Shown piece by piece: positions 8,810-19,501 of a stretch of 64,000 nt of DNA. Made by a program: the position numbers and the translations under genes. The stretch is from a virus: positions 32,001 through 96,000 of the IMG/VR virus record IMGVR_UViG_3300005077_000003; one strand, 5' to 3'. The first letter of the stretch is position 1. Each line of letters opens with the position of its first letter. Below the pieces are notes generated by a model. That model was not told where the DNA came from. It did not search any database and worked only from the letters and a program-made list of their open reading frames with translations.

Positions 8810-9705
8810 GTAGGCTGAGACTACACCTACTAACTGACCGGTCTTGGTGCCCGTATGATTATAACTTAGGCCTTATCCACCAACCTATGTTGGTATCCAG
8901 TCACAGCAGCCTTTTTGAATAGGTGGCGGTTCCTATGTGCTGTCAAACTACTCAATAGCTTTCATTAAGCCAACGCTGCCGCGCTGTTCGTATTGCTACC
9001 TACTACTCGCTGTCCACTATCAACACAATCATCCTTCCGGGAATCATGTGCCTGTATTCATCCGAAGATGTACAGGATTATGCTGCTTTCGCTTGACATC
9101 CGGCCAGGTTTGTGGTTTCTTCTAGTTTGTAGGCAGGACTCGAACCTGCAACCTATCGTTCCTAAAACGACTGAGCTACCAATTGCTCCACTACGTTTAC
9201 GTGAAGACCCCCTGGCCGAATGGTTCCTATATCTTTTGGATATAGAAATGCCAAGGATCTTCTAATGGCTACCTATTAGCTATAGGTTTAACCGGTTAGT
9301 ATGGACTTTGTCTCCGACTTCATAAAATCCACCGGAACCAAAGCACCAAGTAACTGCACTTCGCCTTTTGTTGCTATCCTTCAGACTCTGTGCTACCCTT
9401 TGTCTCTCATATATTCACTAGTTTGCATCCTATCCTCCTTGCGGGAGGAAATTGACCTGATCACCGTTGGCCACAGGCACTTGTCGGCTAGCGTCATATT
9501 TATTCACCCCAGGAGGGTAAACTAGGAGACTCGGCTTGCATGAATGGACCAAAATTAATTGGCGGGTTCCTCGTAACGCAGAATCCCTTTGGGCATATTA
9601 CTATGCTTGTCCTTAGCGACATCATGCTGCCGTACACTTACTCGCATAAGTGAGTAGTGTACTAGTTGTCAAAGAGTTTATTCACGCTCTCTCTTTGAGA
9701 GCTTA
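8810..9705 (-). ncRNA. large (~900 nt) structured ncRNA, GOLLD-like candidate
   Basis: No credible ORF, elevated GC, many stems (cctccc-GCAA-ggagg, acact..aagtgt, closing gtagg...cctac hairpin), tRNA-like insert, size and phage tRNA-region context. Confidence 0.55.
9125..9197 (-). tRNA. tRNA-like element (UAG anticodon), broken acceptor stem, no CCA; probably not a chargeable tRNA
   Basis: GAGC/GCTC D-arm, GTCGT-TTTAGGA-ACGAT anticodon arm, GCAGG-TTCGAGT-CCTGC T-arm; only 4 bp (GTAG/CTAC) of acceptor stem. Confidence 0.6.
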
Positions 9706-14778: not shown

Positions 14779-15296
14779 GTTATCTTCTCCTAGAGTATCT
14801 AAAACCTATCTAAACCACTTCAAACACCCAAACACCTCATAACACCCAGCCCCCGGCTGTGTCCAGGCGAAAAGACCTTTTTCAAGGTTTTCGCCAAGGT
14901 GATTAGCAATACTAACACACTATATGTTGTGGTTTGATTTCAGCATACTATTAGAGGTAAAATTGGTATTCTACCCCTAGAGCAAACCTTCCATTTCGCT
15001 ATCAAGAAATAGGAAGTTGCATATTACAACAGGCCCCAAAAAGGGCCTGTTTTGTAAACTGACACCACTATATATAGTGTGTTCACCACCTATTACTGCT
15101 GGTTCGTGTTATAGGTTCTGCATGCTAACAACTCCGTTGTTAGGGAAGAGGATACAAAGAAAGGAGGGTTTTCCAACCCCCCCAAAGTATTAGCGCCGGA
15201 GCCTACTTTAGGTCCTAATACCGAAATATATTGAATTTCGGTACTACTACCTAATTTTTACACTTTTGCTCTCACCCTACAAGGGGAGAGGCCGGA

Positions 15297-15463
15297 GCCC
15301 GCCTTTTTTCTTTTCGCGGGCTCCTTTGTGTTGTCCCCGTCTCTCCTTGGCGGCTTTCGCCGCCTTTGTTCTTTTGTTTGCCCTTTGTTCGCCGCTGTCG
15401 CGGCTCTTTGTCGGGCTTTTGTCTGTTGGTTGGTTGTCGCTCGCCCCCTGTTGGGGGCTCGCT
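15297..15463 (-). ncRNA. U-free structured RNA segment with repeated ACAA(A) linkers
   Basis: 167 nt with no A on +; GC hairpins joined by ACAAA repeats; begins right after the TAG of a 34-aa ORF. Confidence 0.55.
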
Positions 15464-15566
15464 ATCCCGCACCTAGCCACAACATCACCTTAAAGGCGAT
15501 GATGGCCATGATCGTTGCTGCAACAATGAAGCGCAGCACGATCGCCGCGGCTTTCCGTGCTCGCAT
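15462..15566 (-). CDS. small membrane peptide (34 aa)
   Basis: MRARKAAAIVLRFIVAATIMAIIAFKVMLWLGAG; start 1 nt after the upstream stop. Confidence 0.6.
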   Translation of the reverse strand: MRARKAAAIVLRFIVAATIMAIIAFKVMLWLGAG

Positions 15567-15567
15567 G

Positions 15568-15795
15568 TTATACCTTCTTGTAGTTGTTGTCAACCCACCA
15601 CTTCCGGTAGGCTCTCAGGCTCCCTCCGTGTTTTGCTATGGCAGCCCTGCTTGGATCAACAGGGCACCAGAACGAGTGAAGTTGAGAGAGCGTCTCCGGC
15701 GGTCCACAGACCGGACACGCGAGACGGGGGTCCTTTCTCTCTAGAATGGGCCACATCAGGCCCCAATCCACAGTGATCACTTCATCCATTTTCAA
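15568..15795 (-). CDS. small hypothetical protein with CPVC motif
   Basis: 75 aa, AAGGAG RBS. Confidence 0.6.
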   Translation of the reverse strand: MKMDEVITVDWGLMWPILERKDPRLACPVCGPPETLSQLHSFWCPVDPSRAAIAKHGGSLRAYRKWWVDNNYKKV

Positions 15796-15853
15796 CTCCT
15801 TTCGGACGTAGCGAGGGCTACTGGCTCCTCTTCAGGCGCATACAACCACGTAT

Positions 15854-15881
15854 GCGCTAGGAGAGGAGGAGCCCTTGCGGG
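15854..15881. terminator. terminator-like hairpin
   Basis: aggaggagccc-ttgc-gggctcctcct perfect inverted repeat. Confidence 0.65.
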
Positions 15882-15896
15882 CTCCTCCTATGTTAA

Positions 15897-16109
15897 TCAG
15901 CGATCACCGAGGTAATCCCCGGTGAAGGCGTCGAACACAGCCACTCGCTGCTGGCCGTACTCGACAAACGTGACGATGGCCGCCCATCGCCACAACCCGT
16001 CCATGTCCTGGACTTTGTCCAGGTGCATGAACTTGCTCTCCGGCATCTTCCGGAGAGCCTCCTCTGCCACGCCGTCGGGGCACTCTCGCCCCAGGGCATC
16101 TTTCCTCAT
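15897..16109 (-). CDS. hypothetical protein
   Basis: 70 aa; directly follows a small upstream ORF. Confidence 0.6.
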   Translation of the reverse strand: MRKDALGRECPDGVAEEALRKMPESKFMHLDKVQDMDGLWRWAAIVTFVEYGQQRVAVFDAFTGDYLGDR

Positions 16110-16110
16110 T

Positions 16111-16245
16111 TCAGTCCACCATGTGGCGAATCGCCACGTAGAGGGTGAAGCCGACCCAGTACCCGAAGAGGAACCGGGCGTGCTTCATCCTGTAGACGAA
16201 CGTAAGGATTCCCAGCGGGAACCCTATCAAAATCCCTAGCAGCAT
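16111..16245 (-). CDS. small membrane protein (44 aa)
   Basis: MLLGILIGFPLGILTFVYRMKHARFLFGYWVGFTLYVAIRHMVD, GAGGAG RBS. Confidence 0.6.
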   Translation of the reverse strand: MLLGILIGFPLGILTFVYRMKHARFLFGYWVGFTLYVAIRHMVD

Positions 16246-16247
16246 TG

Positions 16248-16703
16248 CTACTCCTCGCGGGCATAGGCCCGCCTCAGGTTGTAGAGGGGATACCCCCTCC
16301 GGTTACGCGAGACCCGAGTGATCTCCTGATCACCGTGATGAACGGTGATCTTCTTTGGCTCCAGTTCGGCTCTGAAGCTCTTCGTGGAAGCGGCCTCAGC
16401 CGCGTCCATTCCTGGTTGCAGTGCAGCGGGGTCGATCCCCACCGCGTTGCAGAAGTGGAGTACGCGCGCGGCGTACCCCTGCTGGGCCTTCTCGAAGGCA
16501 TCACTAGTGACGCCCTCGAACTTCTTGGGTGCCGTCCACGAGACGTGGACGTACCTTCCCAGGACCCCTAGCGTTATGTAGACTGATGGTAAAGGACCCT
16601 CCCCGTAGACGCGCGCGTTCAGGAGGAACGCGGCGTAGACGCCGCGGGGGAGGATTTCGCCCTCAGAATGGGCGAACGAATCGCTCAGCATGTCGTATGA
16701 CAT
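16248..16703 (-). CDS. hypothetical protein, weak resemblance to DUF669/ssDNA-binding OB folds
   Basis: ILPRGVYAAFLLNARV..V.ITLGV pattern; AAGGA RBS. Confidence 0.55.
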   Translation of the reverse strand: MSYDMLSDSFAHSEGEILPRGVYAAFLLNARVYGEGPLPSVYITLGVLGRYVHVSWTAPKKFEGVTSDAFEKAQQGYAARVLHFCNAVGIDPAALQPGMDAAEAASTKSFRAELEPKKITVHHGDQEITRVSRNRRGYPLYNLRRAYAREE

Positions 16704-16738
16704 GAGCAGTCCTTGTGTACTATGTACACTTTAGTCCT

Positions 16739-16837
16739 GTGACTACGCGCCTGCACGAAATGTGCTTACACCCTCACCTCTAGCCGTAGTCGCGGAGGGC
16801 ATTGGAGGGGCACCCCCCCACAAGAGGATGCCCCTGT
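16739..16837 (-). repeat. structured intergenic module, copy 1
   Basis: Shares cctgcac-N4-tgtgcttac-N6-acctctag and ggcatt..gaggggcaccc..acaagaggatgcccctgt with 17163-17258. Confidence 0.85.
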
Positions 16838-16880
16838 TGCTATGGTGCTGCTGTACTTGCAGTAGCTCAGGACTTCGATT

Positions 16881-17126
16881 CTAGTTCTTCTTGTAGTAGT
16901 CGTCAGCCTCTTGACGACGCCATGTGGTCATGATCCCCGTATCCTGCAGGAAGGTCATCACCTTCCCAAGCATGCTTCCGAGGAAGCTGGTGAAGCTGAC
17001 CATGTAGTCCTTACAGGCCTTTATGTACTCAATCTCCACCTCCACATCCACCTTTTCCAGGGTGAACTCGGGGGTATTGGTCTCGGGGTTGACAGAGATG
17101 TTCATCTTTTCGATCTTGAAATGCAT
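16881..17126 (-). CDS. hypothetical protein
   Basis: MHFKIEKMNISVNPETN...; start chosen downstream of the repeat module. Confidence 0.65.
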   Translation of the reverse strand: MHFKIEKMNISVNPETNTPEFTLEKVDVEVEIEYIKACKDYMVSFTSFLGSMLGKVMTFLQDTGIMTTWRRQEADDYYKKN

Positions 17127-17162
17127 GTGAATCCCTTTGTGCACTAAGGCACTTAGTAAGTT

Positions 17163-17258
17163 GTGACTGTCCACCTGCACTATGTGTGCTTACGCCACTA
17201 CCTCTAGTGACAGTCATGAGTGGCATTGAGGGGCACCCTCACAAGAGGATGCCCCTGT
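17163..17258 (-). repeat. structured intergenic module, copy 2
   Basis: Imperfect direct repeat of 16739-16837 with compensatory changes in the outer stem. Confidence 0.85.
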
Positions 17259-17262
17259 AGTA

Positions 17263-17514
17263 CTAGTCCTTCTTCACTTTGGCCTCGTTCCAGGCCCTCT
17301 TGGTGTTGTCCATGGTCGCCTTGACAACGGGGGCCACGCGCTGGATGCCCTTGCACACCAGCTTGGTGAACTTGTAGGCACCGTTCTTGACCGACTCGCC
17401 GACCTTACTGGCCAGCTTCTGCCTCTCGCGCTCTTGGAAGCGCTGAAAGGCTTCACGGCACTGGTCACACCAGATACCGGTCTCGATCTCCTTGTCACAT
17501 CCCTGGCACTTCAT
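17263..17514 (-). CDS. small zinc-finger protein
   Basis: MKCQGC..CDQC, AAGGAG RBS. Confidence 0.7.
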   Translation of the reverse strand: MKCQGCDKEIETGIWCDQCREAFQRFQERERQKLASKVGESVKNGAYKFTKLVCKGIQRVAPVVKATMDNTKRAWNEAKVKKD

Positions 17515-17623
17515 GCGTTCTCCTTGGTGTGAACGCCCAGCTTCCACAGCTTTAGGGCGGTTTCAGCCTCTTCCCGGCTGCCAGCGCAAACTCCTCGCTG
17601 GCCTTTGTGCCGTTGTAGGCCAT

Positions 17624-17681
17624 TAAAAAAAGAGTAAATAAAAAAAATAGGGATCCCTACCGCGAAGGCAGGGATCCCTAT
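17624..17681 (-). terminator. terminator plus conserved T-tract, copy 1
   Basis: Minus strand tagggatccct..agggatcccta-T8-atttactc-T7; 30 nt identical to 18483-18512. Confidence 0.8.
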
Positions 17682-17696
17682 GTTACCTAGGCCAAA

Positions 17697-18017
17697 TTAG
17701 AAGGGCGACCGCGAACGCCTGCAGTTGCAGGGCCGCGGCTTTCCGTGCTCGCATGCCGGACAGTCCGGCGCATGGGCCTTGAGGGCCAGCCCCTCAAGCA
17801 TGGCGACGCCCATAATCGCTCCAGCCGCCCAGTGCTGGGCTGCCCCAAAGCTCCCGAGACGCCCAATATAGGGCGCTCTGGCCCAGCAACGGAGCCAGCG
17901 ATACGTCTTGCGGGGGTGTTCCCCGTGCTCCCGGCGATCTCTCAGGACCGCCTCCACCGCCGAACGGGCCAACCAGGCCTGCGGGCTGTTCCCTGCTGTA
18001 AAAGACTTCGTATCCAT
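17697..18017 (-). CDS. hypothetical protein with C-terminal Cys motif
   Basis: 106 aa, AGGAGG RBS, CPAC..CNC. Confidence 0.65.
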   Translation of the reverse strand: MDTKSFTAGNSPQAWLARSAVEAVLRDRREHGEHPRKTYRWLRCWARAPYIGRLGSFGAAQHWAAGAIMGVAMLEGLALKAHAPDCPACEHGKPRPCNCRRSRSPF

Positions 18018-18209
18018 AATGGCCTCCTATGGCTATGCGTGCTATGGCGCAGACTTGGTTACATATCCAGCCCTACCGCGTGGAGGTGTCTGCATAGGGC
18101 CATTGGGCACACCACAAGGCATGCCCAAGCATGACCTGAGGGCTACTGGATAGTGGCCCTCAGTCTAACCGCCTCCTCCTTGAGACGAGTAAGCTCGTCC
18201 ATTTGGGGG

Positions 18210-18425
18210 TCAAGCTGTTCCCTCATGGCTAGGTCCTACACCATGAAGGTCAGCAGGATTAGCGCTGCCATCACTAGCAGCACCACCGCCTCGTTCATGG
18301 TGTTTAGACGCCTGTACTCGCTCACCGAGTATCTCCTTGCACTCCTCTACGAGTGCGGCTATGGCCCTGTTTACTTCTTGCAGGGCCGCGATCTCCTCCT
18401 CCAACACGTGCATGTGTAGGCACAT
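18210..18425 (-). CDS. small hypothetical protein (coiled-coil N-terminus)
   Basis: GGAGG RBS before MCLHMHVLEEEIAALQ; C-terminal part overlaps alternative tiny ORFs. Confidence 0.45.
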   Translation of the reverse strand: MCLHMHVLEEEIAALQEVNRAIAALVEECKEILGERVQASKHHERGGGAASDGSANPADLHGVGPSHEGTA

Positions 18426-18482
18426 GCGAACCTCCATGTTGGGGGCCTTTGAGCACAGTAGCCGATGTGCCACTGTGCTCAA

Positions 18483-18539
18483 TAAAAAAAGAGTAAATAA
18501 AAAAAATAGGGACCCCTAGTGTATACTAAGGGTCCCTAT
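18483..18539 (-). terminator. terminator plus conserved T-tract, copy 2
   Basis: Minus strand tagggaccc..ggggtcccta-T8-atttactc-T7. Confidence 0.8.
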
Positions 18540-18552
18540 GTGGGGGCAGCTC

Positions 18553-18750
18553 TTAGTAGAGCTGCCTTACCAAGCCAAGAACCCGCTGGTCCTTGACTTC
18601 GCCTGCGGCCAGCTGCCTCCTGAGCAGCTCAACCCCCTTCCGGGCCCACTTGGGGTCCCGGAGGAGGTTCACTACAACCACGTTCCTCTCGTCCGAGGAC
18701 AGGAGGGTGATGATCTGGCCGATGGTGTGGAAGAACTTGGAACTACGCAT
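18553..18750 (-). CDS. hypothetical protein (first gene of the leftward arm)
   Basis: MRSSKFFHTIGQ..., AGGAGG RBS within a 17-nt leader shared with the 17697-18017 gene. Confidence 0.7.
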   Translation of the reverse strand: MRSSKFFHTIGQIITLLSSDERNVVVVNLLRDPKWARKGVELLRRQLAAGEVKDQRVLGLVRQLY

Positions 18751-18900
18751 TGTATTGCCTCCTATGGCTATGCTTTCCATGTACACATTACCTAGTGTAC
18801 GTGTGCCATCGTACAGGCACAGGCTATAGCACACACTGTGTGTACTATAGTGCAGGCAGTACTTATATAGCACCCTGCCCTTGGCGCTTAAGCATATTAG

Positions 18901-19160
18901 AAGGGGGGGGGTGGGCGTGAAATGGGGAGATCCATCTCACAAGAAGCCCAAGTAGTACTATCCCTACCAATTAAACTACTATTTTCCAGGTATTAAGGCC
19001 TCCATCTCTCTTAAATTACTTTTTATGGGTATTAAGGCAAAATTTATTGTTTAAAATAATAAGAGTGGTGGAAATTTATATATTAGTTGTAATTTTTAGG
19101 GCATTAAGCGTTTATACCGATATCTTTTTAGGTTGCCCGCCAGTTTTTAGGGTTAATTAG
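18901..19160. promoter_or_regulatory. divergence point: G-run plus iteron-like repeats (possible terminus/pac/origin)
   Basis: G9 run at 18903-18911; three GG(T/C)ATTAAG motifs and TTTTTAGG motifs; strand switch and abrupt GC drop. Confidence 0.45.
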
Positions 19161-19162
19161 CA

Positions 19163-19501
19163 ATGACAGAACAATCAATAAGTTATCTTCCATTTTATCC
19201 ATTTTCACAGACTAGTGATAGTACTTTTTATATAGATAGTACTAGTAATAATAATACATTTACTATTGATAGTACTAATCATATTACTAATATAGTTTGG
19301 GGTGAAATGACAGATACTAAATATAATACTTATAATAATAGCCAGGTTGCTATTAAGTTTAGTAGCCTAGAGGCTATTATAATAGCCGCCAAGTTTACTT
19401 TGTTTATGAATATTAATGATTTAATGGAGATACCATTAGATGATTTAGTAGCACTGTCAAAAGAAGTAATGGCGGATACTAGTTTGCATTTAAAGAAGTA
19501 A
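19163..19501 (+). CDS. hypothetical protein
   Basis: 112-aa ORF; start uncertain. Confidence 0.55.
   Translation: MTEQSISYLPFYPFSQTSDSTFYIDSTSNNNTFTIDSTNHITNIVWGEMTDTKYNTYNNSQVAIKFSSLEAIIIAAKFTLFMNINDLMEIPLDDLVALSKEVMADTSLHLKK

What the first reader, a model, noticed from the sequence alone, without database searches (positions are those of the whole stretch)
15297..15463. 167-nt U-free structured RNA with repeated ACAA(A) linkers
Seen: no A on + from 15297 to 15463, so the sense (minus) transcript has no U (chance about 0.8^167, roughly 1e-16, at 20% A). It starts immediately after a TAG stop. It folds with GC-only stems (gccccc/gggggc, gccc..gggc enclosing gccgc/gcggc, ggcggc-GAAA-gccgcc, ggagcccgc/gcgggctcc) joined by repeated ACAA/ACAAA linkers. 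Inference: selection at RNA level, such as a protein sponge (compare the A-rich motifs of CrcZ/Hfq), a decoy for ACA-cutting toxins, or resistance to U-directed nucleases (RNase E, some Cas13). I know no described element like it.
Basis: partly seen in the sequence, partly recalled or inferred. Interest (0 to 1): 0.8.

Follow-up and report, generated by a model that had tools for sequence, protein, structure and literature searches.

The report
Uridine-free hairpin array in phage mRNA
A large uncultured phage carries, right after the last gene of its GC-rich early operon, a unique 167-base stretch whose RNA has no U at all and folds into four G-C-only hairpins; it is real, far beyond chance and not protein-coding, but it occurs in this one genome only, so its job (most likely a nuclease-proof RNA tail or platform) is only inferred.

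Summary
Window 15297-15463 has no A on the + strand, so the sense RNA has no U. It is the only such run in the 177.6-kb phage; the next longest is 34 nt.

The tract starts at the AG of the TAG stop of a 34-codon membrane-peptide ORF. It ends in the 3' arm of a 9-bp hairpin. The RNA folds into four G-C-only hairpins (z = -8.8).

It is not the ordinary kind of T-free tract. T- or A-free runs of 154 nt or more occurred in 66 of 301 high-GC bacterial genomes. The 32 I examined were nearly all repetitive, 3-periodic and inside long ORFs. This tract is non-repetitive, shows no codon periodicity, uses codons unlike its neighbours, and has no ORF beyond itself.

Neighbouring hairpins fold better as minus-strand RNA. 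The last hairpin is a paralogue of a conserved intercistronic module.

No homologue was found in related phages, Rfam, phage or plasmid collections, or one metagenome scan.

Tests for Hfq/Crc, CsrA, CRISPR-repeat, DGR and ACA-decoy readings were negative or unsupported.

Best guess (confidence 0.35): a nuclease-resistant 3'-UTR module or RNA platform.

This scan earlier noted a C-free gene in another genome (e1-895147). That one is coding, so it is a different case.

The parts
15297..15463 (-). U-free tract: 167 nt of sense RNA with A 41%, G 31%, C 28%, U 0%
   Evidence: unique in the 177.6-kb genome
15443..15458 (-). Hairpin H1: GCCCCC-AACA-GGGGGC, starting 4 nt after the stop codon
15380..15416 (-). 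Hairpin H2: outer GCCC/GGGC, an 8x7 A-rich internal loop, inner GCCGC-GACA-GCGGC (15391-15404)
15349..15364 (-). Hairpin H3: GGCGGC-GAAA-GCCGCC (GNRA tetraloop in the sense orientation)
15294..15324 (-). Hairpin H4: 9-bp stem GGAGCCCGC/GCGGGCUCC with a 13-nt A-rich loop. The first U after the tract (15296) lies in its 3' arm. Paralogue of the intercistronic hairpin at 15866-15891.
15285..15346 (-). Predicted outer helix, GGAGAG (15341-15346) with CUCUCC (15285-15290), enclosing H4. CUCUCC also follows the paralogous module.
15462..15566 (-). Last ORF of the GC-rich early operon: a 34-aa single-pass membrane peptide ending in TAG. GC3 is 0.69, like the other island genes.
15200..15293 (-). U-containing structured part of the same 3' UTR. 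The long hairpin 15208-15254 folds better as minus-strand RNA (-21.7 against -16.2 kcal/mol).
15152..15183 (-). Intrinsic-terminator-like hairpin with a U-rich tail, minus strand only (-15.1 against -8.2 kcal/mol; its G-U pairs exist only in this sense). Probable 3' end of the transcript that carries the tract.
15565..15593 (-). Sigma-70-like promoter match TTGACA-17-TAACAT (10 of 12) overlapping the start codon of the peptide ORF. It could give a separate RNA of about 400 nt that carries the tract. Consensus match only.
15860..15891 (-). Standard intercistronic module (hairpin with GCAA loop, then CUCUCCU). It is conserved in the only relative of this early arm (L172) and is the paralogue of H4 plus CUCUCC.

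Best explanation
The tract is the non-coding 3'-untranslated segment of the phage's leftward, GC-rich early mRNA (sense = minus strand). It is an enlarged version of the lineage's own intercistronic hairpin module.

Without U, none of its 68 A residues can pair. The RNA can therefore fold only into the four G-C hairpins, with ACA-rich linkers held single-stranded.

Three kinds of nuclease attack look blocked. No hairpin is followed by a U-tract, so none should act as a terminator. There is no U for an RNase E-type cut, which prefers a U two nucleotides downstream in single-stranded RNA. The stems are too short for RNase III.

The segment should therefore resist endonucleases and block 3' exonucleases. 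It would work as a protective 3' cap for the operon mRNA, or survive as a stable RNA fragment that offers its linkers and hairpins to a partner not yet identified.

Shown: base exclusion, fold, non-coding character, strand, and paralogy with the module. Inferred: transcription, stability, any partner.
For: - Unique U-free run. Other intergenic regions of the same island have 19-40% U.
- Fold z = -8.8 to -9.7, stable across three contexts.
- Only 8 G-C-only hairpins with a stem of 5 bp or more and a 4-nt loop exist in 177.6 kb; 3 of them lie in the tract.
- Not coding: no periodicity, A-ending K/E/Q codons 12:8, 12:6 and 10:5 against 27:108 in island genes, and no open frame beyond 210 nt.
- All flanking genes are on the minus strand. 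The adjacent hairpin and terminator fold 5-7 kcal/mol better as minus-strand RNA.
- In the sense orientation, the listed G-C-only intergenic hairpins of this phage and of L172, plus the GCAA module at 15866-15891, have U-free, A-rich loops: GCAA, GCAA, ACAA, AACA, GACA, GAAA.
- H4 shares GGAGCCCGC and the trailing CUCUCC with a module conserved in L172.
- The RNase E preference for U at +2 comes from the abstract of PMC5222698.
Against: - It is a singleton. No homologous or analogous tract was found in 13 related loci, 5 related viral records, L172, the phage and plasmid collections, or one metagenome scan.
- There are no expression data.
- A stabiliser would tolerate an occasional U, so complete exclusion over 167 nt is not fully explained.
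- The upstream coding part of the mRNA contains U and stays cleavable.
- The host is unknown, so its RNase set is unknown.
- Motif tests found no known partner.
Confidence: 0.35

Rival explanations
1. Protein-recruiting platform for transcription control (works like lambda nutR/boxB or HK022 put). The hairpin array on the nascent early RNA binds a phage or host factor that lets RNA polymerase read through the terminator 115 nt downstream into the delayed-early genes.
For: - Placement after the last immediate-early ORF and just upstream of a minus-strand terminator.
- No sigma-70 match of 9/12 or better lies between that terminator and the next gene on the minus strand.
- Two very strong internal terminators upstream (15-bp stems, U8) are followed directly by ORFs. 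This suggests the arm relies on read-through.
- Short G-C stems with purine-rich loops (GAAA, GACA) recall boxB loops. This is from memory and was not tested.
Against: - No boxA is possible, because boxA contains U.
- No arginine-rich N-like protein was recognised among the island ORFs.
- The four hairpins differ in sequence, so a single sequence-specific binder is unlikely.
- Nothing in this reading requires total absence of U.
Confidence: 0.13
2. U-exclusion is a defence-evasion trait. The RNA is built to survive a U-directed attack, such as U-preferring collateral or toxin RNases, or ddhUTP-type chain terminators. It would persist as a decoy or scaffold when other RNAs are destroyed or cannot be completed.
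For: - Only a process in which a single U is fatal explains complete exclusion over 167 non-repetitive nucleotides. This is inference.
- ddh-nucleotides, including ddhUTP, act as chain terminators for RNA polymerases (10.1101/2023.09.13.557418).
- A possible own promoter lies about 95 nt upstream.
Against: - Any transcript reaching the tract first crosses U-containing RNA, whether from the operon or from the putative promoter.
- No defence or counter-defence gene was recognised nearby.
- The host is unknown.
- The comparable C-free case in this scan was later priced at 5% for the same kind of reading (e1-895147).
Confidence: 0.1
3. A plus-strand feature: three tandem one-way intrinsic terminators. 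Each is a G-C hairpin followed by UUUGU-type tails, and together they shield the early operon from antisense transcription.
For: The scan flags H3, H2 and an H2-outer variant as terminator-like on the + strand. H4 is followed by TTTGTGTTGT.
Against: - No + strand gene or convincing + strand promoter lies upstream.
- The phage's own clear terminators look different: 15-bp stems and U8.
- H4 has a 13-nt loop and H2 has large internal loops.
- The fold z-score is weaker on + (-4.6 against -8.8).
- Terminators do not need zero A.
Confidence: 0.08
4. A DNA-level or hybrid-level element. The purine-rich, U-free transcript forms an unusually stable R-loop with the pyrimidine-rich template, with hairpins in the displaced strand. 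This could serve as a replication-priming or recombination site, or the hairpins could act in single-stranded DNA.
For: - The sense strand is 72% purine with no weak rU:dA pairs.
- All stems are perfect palindromes, so they exist equally in DNA.
- The tract lies in the early arm, 3.5 kb from the strand-switch and GC-skew minimum.
Against: - There are no iterons or AT-rich unwinding element beside it.
- RNA hairpins would compete with hybrid formation.
- The flanking structures show an RNA-strand asymmetry that DNA function does not predict.
Confidence: 0.08
5. It is translated. Options are a 66-67-aa basic disordered peptide from GTG 15472 or GTG 15480, or a hydrophilic tail of the membrane peptide produced by read-through of TAG.
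For: - All three frames are open.
- GTG 15480 has AAGG 7 nt upstream.
- In other genomes most long T-free tracts are coding.
- The read-through product gives a sub-threshold DUF4834 match (E 0.0011, 20.2 bits, cut-off 27.8).
Against: - No codon periodicity and codon endings unlike island genes (p about 1e-4 in every frame).
- P(no U | peptide) is 1e-3 to 1e-12.
- Coding does not explain a fold z of -8.8.
- There is no suppressor tRNA, and TAG is a normal stop in 18 of 107 long ORFs.
- No homologue among 5.8 billion proteins and no Pfam family over threshold.
Confidence: 0.04
6. No function: a mutational relic (strand-specific hypermutation), a recent odd insertion, or an assembly artefact at the edge of the GC-rich block.
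For: It is a singleton, it lies at the left edge of the high-GC block, and reads could not be inspected.
Against: - T-to-C hypermutation would leave A-C mismatches in former stems, yet all stems are perfect.
- The edges coincide with a stop codon and a hairpin arm.
- H4 is a good copy of a conserved module.
- The GC-rich left arm is shared by relatives, so the block is not a chimeric insert.
Confidence: 0.05

Closest known systems
3'-terminal and intercistronic stabiliser hairpins of bacterial and phage operons (for example REP sequences downstream of malE, or hairpins between T7/T4 early genes); from established knowledge
   Same: G-C-rich stem-loops without a U-tract, placed after a stop codon inside or at the end of an operon. 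They are expected to block 3'-to-5' exonucleases. H4 is a paralogue of this phage's own intercistronic hairpin.
   Different: REPs are multi-copy and contain U. Here there is a single array of four different hairpins plus about 100 nt of linkers, with one nucleotide wholly excluded.
Protein-sponge sRNAs: CrcZ/CrcY (Hfq/Crc) and CsrB/RsmZ (CsrA)
   Same: Stem-loops alternate with single-stranded A-rich segments.
   Different: The defining motifs are not enriched (AAnAAnAA 2 against 1.2 expected; no GGA in loops). There is no Rfam match even at E up to 10. Those RNAs contain U.
Lambda nutR (boxA-boxB) and HK022 put antitermination RNAs
   Same: Short hairpins on the nascent early transcript, between the last immediate-early gene and a terminator. 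The loops are purine-rich.
   Different: No boxA. Four unlike hairpins instead of one or two defined ones. No N-like protein was seen. No homology was tested or found.
Ordinary long T-free tracts: low-complexity coding repeats such as PT-, GD-, AE- or KE-rich linkers and collagen-like repeats
   Same: One base is absent for 150-300 nt.
   Different: Nearly all of those lie in long ORFs (468-2661 nt), are strongly 3-periodic and repetitive, and have fold z from -5 to +6. This tract has a 210-nt open frame, periodicity 0.11, 8-mer repetitiveness 0.06 and z = -8.3.
C-free viral gene noted earlier in this scan (e1-895147)
   Same: A virus-borne stretch of a few hundred nucleotides that excludes one base completely on the sense strand.
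   Different: That case is an intact protein-coding gene in a recurrent family. This one is non-coding, hairpin-rich and so far unique.

Membership tests
CrcZ/CrcY-type Hfq/Crc sponge RNA | Several AAnAAnAA (CA) motifs or ARN-triplet runs in unpaired regions | tested here: not met
   AAnAAnAA: 2 observed, 1.24 expected (P = 0.33). Runs of four or more ARN triplets: 1 observed, 1.56 expected (P = 0.70).
CrcZ/CrcY-type Hfq/Crc sponge RNA | Match to the Rfam covariance model | tested here: not met
   No hit in the tract at gathering score or at E up to 10.
CsrB/RsmZ-type CsrA sponge RNA | Many GGA motifs presented in hairpin loops | tested here: not met
   The loops are AACA, GACA, GAAA and a 13-nt A/G loop without GGA. 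By my own count from the sequence, only 3 GGA occur in the tract, all in linkers or stems. No Rfam hit.
Intrinsic (Rho-independent) terminator, minus strand | G-C hairpin followed by a U-tract | tested here: not met
   There is no U in the tract. The first minus-strand terminator-like site is downstream, at 15183-15162.
Intrinsic terminator array, plus strand | G-C hairpin with a 3-8 nt loop followed by a U-rich tail, plus an upstream transcription unit to terminate | tested here: inconclusive
   The hairpin-plus-tail pattern is met for H3 and H2. No + strand gene, and no promoter match of 9/12 or better, lies directly upstream. The phage's clear terminators have 15-bp stems and U8.
Lambda-type nut site | A boxA sequence next to a boxB hairpin, and an N-like arginine-rich protein | tested here: not met
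   boxA contains U and so cannot lie in the tract. No island ORF matched a known family of that kind. Resemblance of the loops to boxB is from memory only.
Low-complexity protein-coding T-free tract | Lies in a long ORF, with 3-nt periodicity, repeats, and host-like synonymous codon use | tested here: not met
   Open frame 210 nt, periodicity 0.11, repetitiveness 0.06. K/E/Q codon endings differ from island genes (p about 1e-4).
RNA anti-CRISPR / solitary CRISPR repeat mimic | Sequence and structure similarity to a CRISPR repeat family | tested here: inconclusive
   No CRISPR-DR family of Rfam matched at E up to 10. The host and its repeats are unknown.
Diversity-generating retroelement (template or variable repeat) | A reverse transcriptase with a nearby TR/VR pair that differs at adenines | tested here: not met
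   The genome has a reverse transcriptase, but it is retron-type and 40 kb away. blastn found no second copy of the tract and no TR/VR pair.
REP/BIME-type extragenic palindromes | Many dispersed copies per genome | tested here: not met
   The covariance model of the tract hits only itself in the genome and in 4 related records. Only one other copy of the H4 module exists.
Type I toxin-antitoxin locus (small membrane peptide plus antisense RNA over its 3' UTR) | A small hydrophobic toxin ORF and a convergent antisense RNA gene with its own promoter | tested here: inconclusive
   A 34-aa membrane peptide ORF is present. No + strand promoter match of 9/12 or better lies left of the tract. Toxicity was not tested.

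The most novel reading that the evidence does not exclude
A phage has evolved a 167-nt RNA written with only A, C and G because a single U would be fatal to it. The U-less segment would outlast a U-directed host attack, such as U-preferring RNases or UTP-analogue chain terminators, and act as a decoy, scaffold or protected message tail. That would make nucleotide exclusion a counter-defence strategy for RNA.
Probability: 0.1. Interest if true: 0.85.

Novelty: new variant of a known kind. Interest (0 to 1): 0.55.

Why it matters
If the tract is a functional RNA, it is a natural example of an RNA alphabet cut to three letters. That design forces a single modular fold, keeps every A unpaired and removes the preferred cleavage context of RNase E-type enzymes. 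Such a design is of interest for RNA stability, for phage control of early messages, and for engineering nuclease-resistant RNAs.

It also gives a clean experimental handle. Putting single U residues into the linkers should have no effect on an ordinary stabiliser. It should have a large effect if U itself is the target of selection.

The control work here also gives a practical rule for the scan. Long base-free tracts are common in high-GC genomes and usually mean low-complexity coding. Only non-repetitive, non-periodic, strongly folding tracts such as this one deserve attention.

Tried and rejected
- Homology by DNA: blastn of 14800-16200 and 16200-19000 against 50,697 phage records, and of 15150-15600 against plasmids, gave no match.
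- Homology by neighbouring proteins in IMG/VR: the 151-aa, 169-aa and 494-aa proteins, and the alignment A2, gave none.
- The 995-aa protein gave 13 distant loci and one MAG contig. None has a base-free run over 66 nt. Five whole related records have no T- or A-free run of 90 nt or more.
- The left arms of three relatives have no depleted window.
- The motif scan ACAAAGG x3 in IMG/VR returned only tandem coding repeats.
- A 22-mer of H3 in metagenome contigs gave two chance hits inside genes coding AAKAAKE.
- The island proteins are near-orphans. The 151-aa and 75-aa proteins hit only themselves among 5.8 billion proteins. Exhaustive HMMER found one remote relative, on the 2.66-kb contig L172; no longer contig was found.
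- The covariance model of the tract found only itself.
- Relatives cannot be drawn for a virus record.
- TAG recoding is rejected: no suppressor tRNA, and TAG is used as a stop.
- A DGR origin is rejected.
- An ACA-specific toxin decoy is unsupported.
- A literature search for natural U-free RNAs found nothing relevant.
- PHROG scans of the giant virion ORFs gave no clue to a virion RNA polymerase. The PF00940 search was uninformative because its controls did not ring.

Full report
**Setting**

The window is bases 32001-96000 of a 177,611-bp IMG/VR phage record. The record is linear, about 92% complete and 36% GC. Most of its proteins match no family.

Genes left of about 18.9 kb lie on the minus strand, and genes right of 19.16 kb lie on the plus strand. 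The first 3.6 kb of the leftward arm (15.3-18.9 kb) is 55-62% GC.

The ten small ORFs in that block are real genes. Their GC3 is 0.53-0.84 (at least 0.63 in nine of ten), against 0.35-0.45 in the next genes.

A GC-raised left arm also occurs in distant relatives. The block is therefore a trait of the lineage and not a chimeric insert.

**The observation**

Positions 15297-15463 contain no A on the + strand, so the sense RNA has no U. This is the longest run lacking any base in the whole genome. The next A-free run is 34 nt.

Other intergenic stretches of the same arm have 19-40% U.

The tract starts at the AG of the TAG that closes a 34-codon membrane-peptide ORF (ATG 15566, stop 15464-15462). 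The first U after the tract lies in the 3' arm of hairpin H4.

**Structure**

As minus-strand RNA, the tract with short flanks folds at -80.1 kcal/mol against -47.0 +/- 3.8 for dinucleotide shuffles. That is z = -8.8. The fold has four discrete G-C-only hairpins:
- H1: 15443-15458.
- H2: 15380-15416, with an inner stem at 15391-15404.
- H3: 15349-15364.
- H4: 15294-15324.

A GGAGAG/CUCUCC helix lies around H4. The same hairpins appear in 331-nt and 409-nt contexts (z = -9.0 and -9.7).

In the entire genome only eight G-C-only hairpins have a stem of 5 bp or more and a 4-nt loop. Three of them lie in these 167 nt.

In the linkers, ACA, ACAA and ACAAAG are over-represented: 12 against 5.4, 8 against 2.7, and 4 against 0.39. 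The tract is not a tandem repeat.

**Is it just a hydrophilic coding tract?**

This is the ordinary explanation, so I tested it against a control set. T- or A-free runs of 154 nt or more occur in 66 of 301 genomes of one high-GC phylum. I analysed 32 of these runs from the 30 loci the search returned. Nearly all of them:
- lie in long open frames (468-2661 nt);
- show strong 3-nt periodicity (median about 0.5);
- are repetitive (median 8-mer repeat fraction about 0.8);
- have fold z-scores between -5.2 and +5.9.

Two of the 301 genomes (G179, G278) are unpublished. The count of 66, and the rows L155 and L159, rest partly on them.

The IMG/VR motif scan gave the same picture.

The phage tract is an outlier on every measure. 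Its longest open frame is 210 nt, its periodicity 0.11, its repetitiveness 0.06, its z-score -8.3 and its A content 41%.

Codon evidence points the same way:
- Island genes end K/E/Q codons in G 108 times and in A 27 times.
- The three frames of the tract give A:G ratios of 12:8, 12:6 and 10:5 (Fisher p = 1e-4 to 4e-4).
- Even given each frame's peptide, the chance that synonymous choice avoids U is 10^-3.2 to 10^-5.2 with island codon usage.
- With backbone codon usage that chance is 10^-8 to 10^-12.

There is no suppressor tRNA, and TAG is an ordinary stop. The read-through product and the two GTG-started frames have no Pfam family over threshold and no homologue.

Coding is therefore rejected as the cause. 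Whatever excludes U acts on the nucleic acid.

**Which strand?**

All the stems are perfect G-C palindromes, so on their own they are uninformative. The surroundings do tell the strand:
- Every neighbouring gene is on the minus strand.
- The long hairpin at 15208-15254 folds at -21.7 kcal/mol as minus-strand RNA and -16.2 as plus.
- The terminator-like hairpin at 15183-15162, with its U-rich tail, folds at -15.1 as minus-strand RNA and -8.2 as plus. Its G-U pairs exist only in the minus sense.

The tract therefore most likely sits in a minus-sense transcript that ends near 15155, as part of a 3' UTR of about 300 nt.

In the sense orientation, the intergenic hairpin loops of this arm and of its one relative are U-free and A-rich, and three are GNRA. 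They are GCAA, GCAA, ACAA, AACA, GACA and GAAA. The three G-C-only palindromes inside the 151-aa gene have loops TCTA, TGAG and CTAT.

On the + strand, three of the hairpins look like weak terminators. Three points count against that reading:
- There is no + strand unit to terminate.
- The phage's clear terminators are of a different build (15-bp stems, U8).
- The + strand fold is less exceptional (z = -4.6).

**Relatives**

The tract has no second copy in the genome. It matches no Rfam family, even at E up to 10. It matches nothing in the phage or plasmid collections.

Distant relatives were found through a 995-aa protein (42-54% identity). They keep the rightward gene order but share no leftward genes, and they have no base-free or base-depleted stretch.

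The island proteins are near-orphans. Exhaustive HMMER found one remote homologue, on the 2.66-kb metagenome contig L172. That contig is syntenic for two island genes.

L172 has the same kind of intergenic hairpins. It shares a well conserved module with the window at 15860-15891: a hairpin with a GCAA loop followed by CUCUCCU, with one compensatory pair.

H4 of the tract carries the same 9-mer, GGAGCCCGC. That 9-mer occurs 3 times in the window against 0.11 expected, and two of the three are the palindromic arms of H4. H4 is followed by the same CUCUCC.

The 3' end of the tract is thus an elaborated copy of a lineage-specific intercistronic element. The U-free array itself is so far unique to this phage.

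**Specific readings tested**

- Hfq/Crc sponge: the defining A-rich motifs are not enriched.
- CsrA sponge: no GGA lies in any loop.
- CRISPR-repeat mimic: no CRISPR-DR model matched. The host is unknown.
- DGR: the phage has a reverse transcriptase, but it is retron-type and 40 kb away. No TR/VR pair exists.
- ACA-cutting toxin decoy: ACA is enriched in the tract, but the phage's mRNAs do not avoid ACA (observed/expected 0.94-1.22).
- Papers: no natural U-free prokaryotic or phage RNA turned up.

**Most likely mechanism**

Without U, the 68 A residues cannot pair. The RNA can then form only its four G-C hairpins, and it holds about 100 nt of ACA-rich linker single-stranded.

No hairpin has a U-tail, so none should terminate transcription. 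RNase E-type enzymes cut single-stranded RNA with a strong preference for a U two nucleotides downstream (abstract of PMC5222698), and no such site exists in the tract. The 5-9 bp stems are too short for RNase III, by established knowledge.

I therefore read the tract as a nuclease-resistant, exonuclease-blocking 3' module of the early mRNA. It could also persist as a stable fragment and serve as a platform for an unknown partner.

My confidence is about 0.35. It is limited for these reasons:
- Nothing shows expression.
- A stabiliser does not need zero U.
- The element is a singleton.

**Rivals**

The rivals, with their confidences, are given in the structured fields:
- a nut/put-like recruitment site ahead of the terminator;
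- selection by a U-directed defence;
- plus-strand terminators;
- an R-loop or DNA-level element;
- translation;
- a non-functional relic or artefact.

**Verdict**

The anomaly is real, striking and statistically secure. It is non-coding and lies on the sense strand. It is built from this lineage's ordinary hairpin parts but is unique in excluding one nucleotide. Its function is open.

Of its proposed partners, the Hfq/Crc motif test was negative and the ACA-decoy idea gained no support. The nuclease-resistance idea remains the best lead.

Noticed in passing
window 8812-9263 (-), with 9129-9194 (-): Rfam gathering-level match to GOLLD RNA (150.8 bits, cut-off 150). A tRNA-like domain is embedded in it and scores 50.7 bits against the tRNA model.
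   Followed up: partly
G000:C1:6176-7594 (-), = L134:1069-2487; outside the window: The phage encodes a 472-aa retron-type reverse transcriptase. Best PADLOC matches are RT-Protease_XI and RT_II-A (about 1e-46 to 1e-43). The NCBIfam retron St85 RT match (1e-43) is below its curated cut-off. Palindromes lie just downstream at G000:5729-5833.
   Followed up: partly
window 15544-15567 and 17732-17755: An exact 24-nt direct repeat, 2.2 kb apart. One copy covers the start codon and the following codons of the 34-aa peptide ORF. The other lies, in a different frame, in the 3' part of the 106-aa ORF.
   Followed up: no
window 17621-17681 and 18480-18539 (-): Two near-identical modules. Each has a 15-bp hairpin and a U8 terminator, followed at once by a U-rich leader without a Shine-Dalgarno sequence and then an ATG. 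Genes directly behind strong terminators suggest that read-through or antitermination controls this arm.
   Followed up: no
window 15860-15891 (-) and L172:1695-1730 (+): An intercistronic module (G-C hairpin with GCAA loop, then CUCUCCU) is better conserved in nucleotides between two phages than the flanking proteins are in amino acids (25-39% identity).
   Followed up: partly
window 14914-14940 and 15057-15083, flanking 15030-15055: Two near-palindromic boxes of about 21 bp (CACACTATATATAGTG type) flank a hairpin that looks like a terminator in both directions. This may be an operator pair in the 520-bp gap before the 169-aa gene.
   Followed up: no
L168 (G001:1-6500), L169 (G005:1-9500): Distant relatives also have a GC-raised leftward arm (0.50-0.57, against 0.42-0.46 to the right). 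They share no detectable leftward genes with this phage.
   Followed up: partly
L137 (DAINSI010000020.1, Candidatus Dormiibacterota MAG, 36.9-kb contig): This is the only prokaryote-genome hit for the phage's 995-aa protein (37% identity). It may be a binned phage contig, so it is only a weak clue to the host.
   Followed up: no
window 19278-19336: Back-to-back sigma-70-like promoter matches sit at the strand-switch point: ATGACA-18-TATAAT on + (11 of 12) and TTCACC-17-TATGAT on - (9 of 12). They fit divergent early promoters read by the host polymerase.
   Followed up: no
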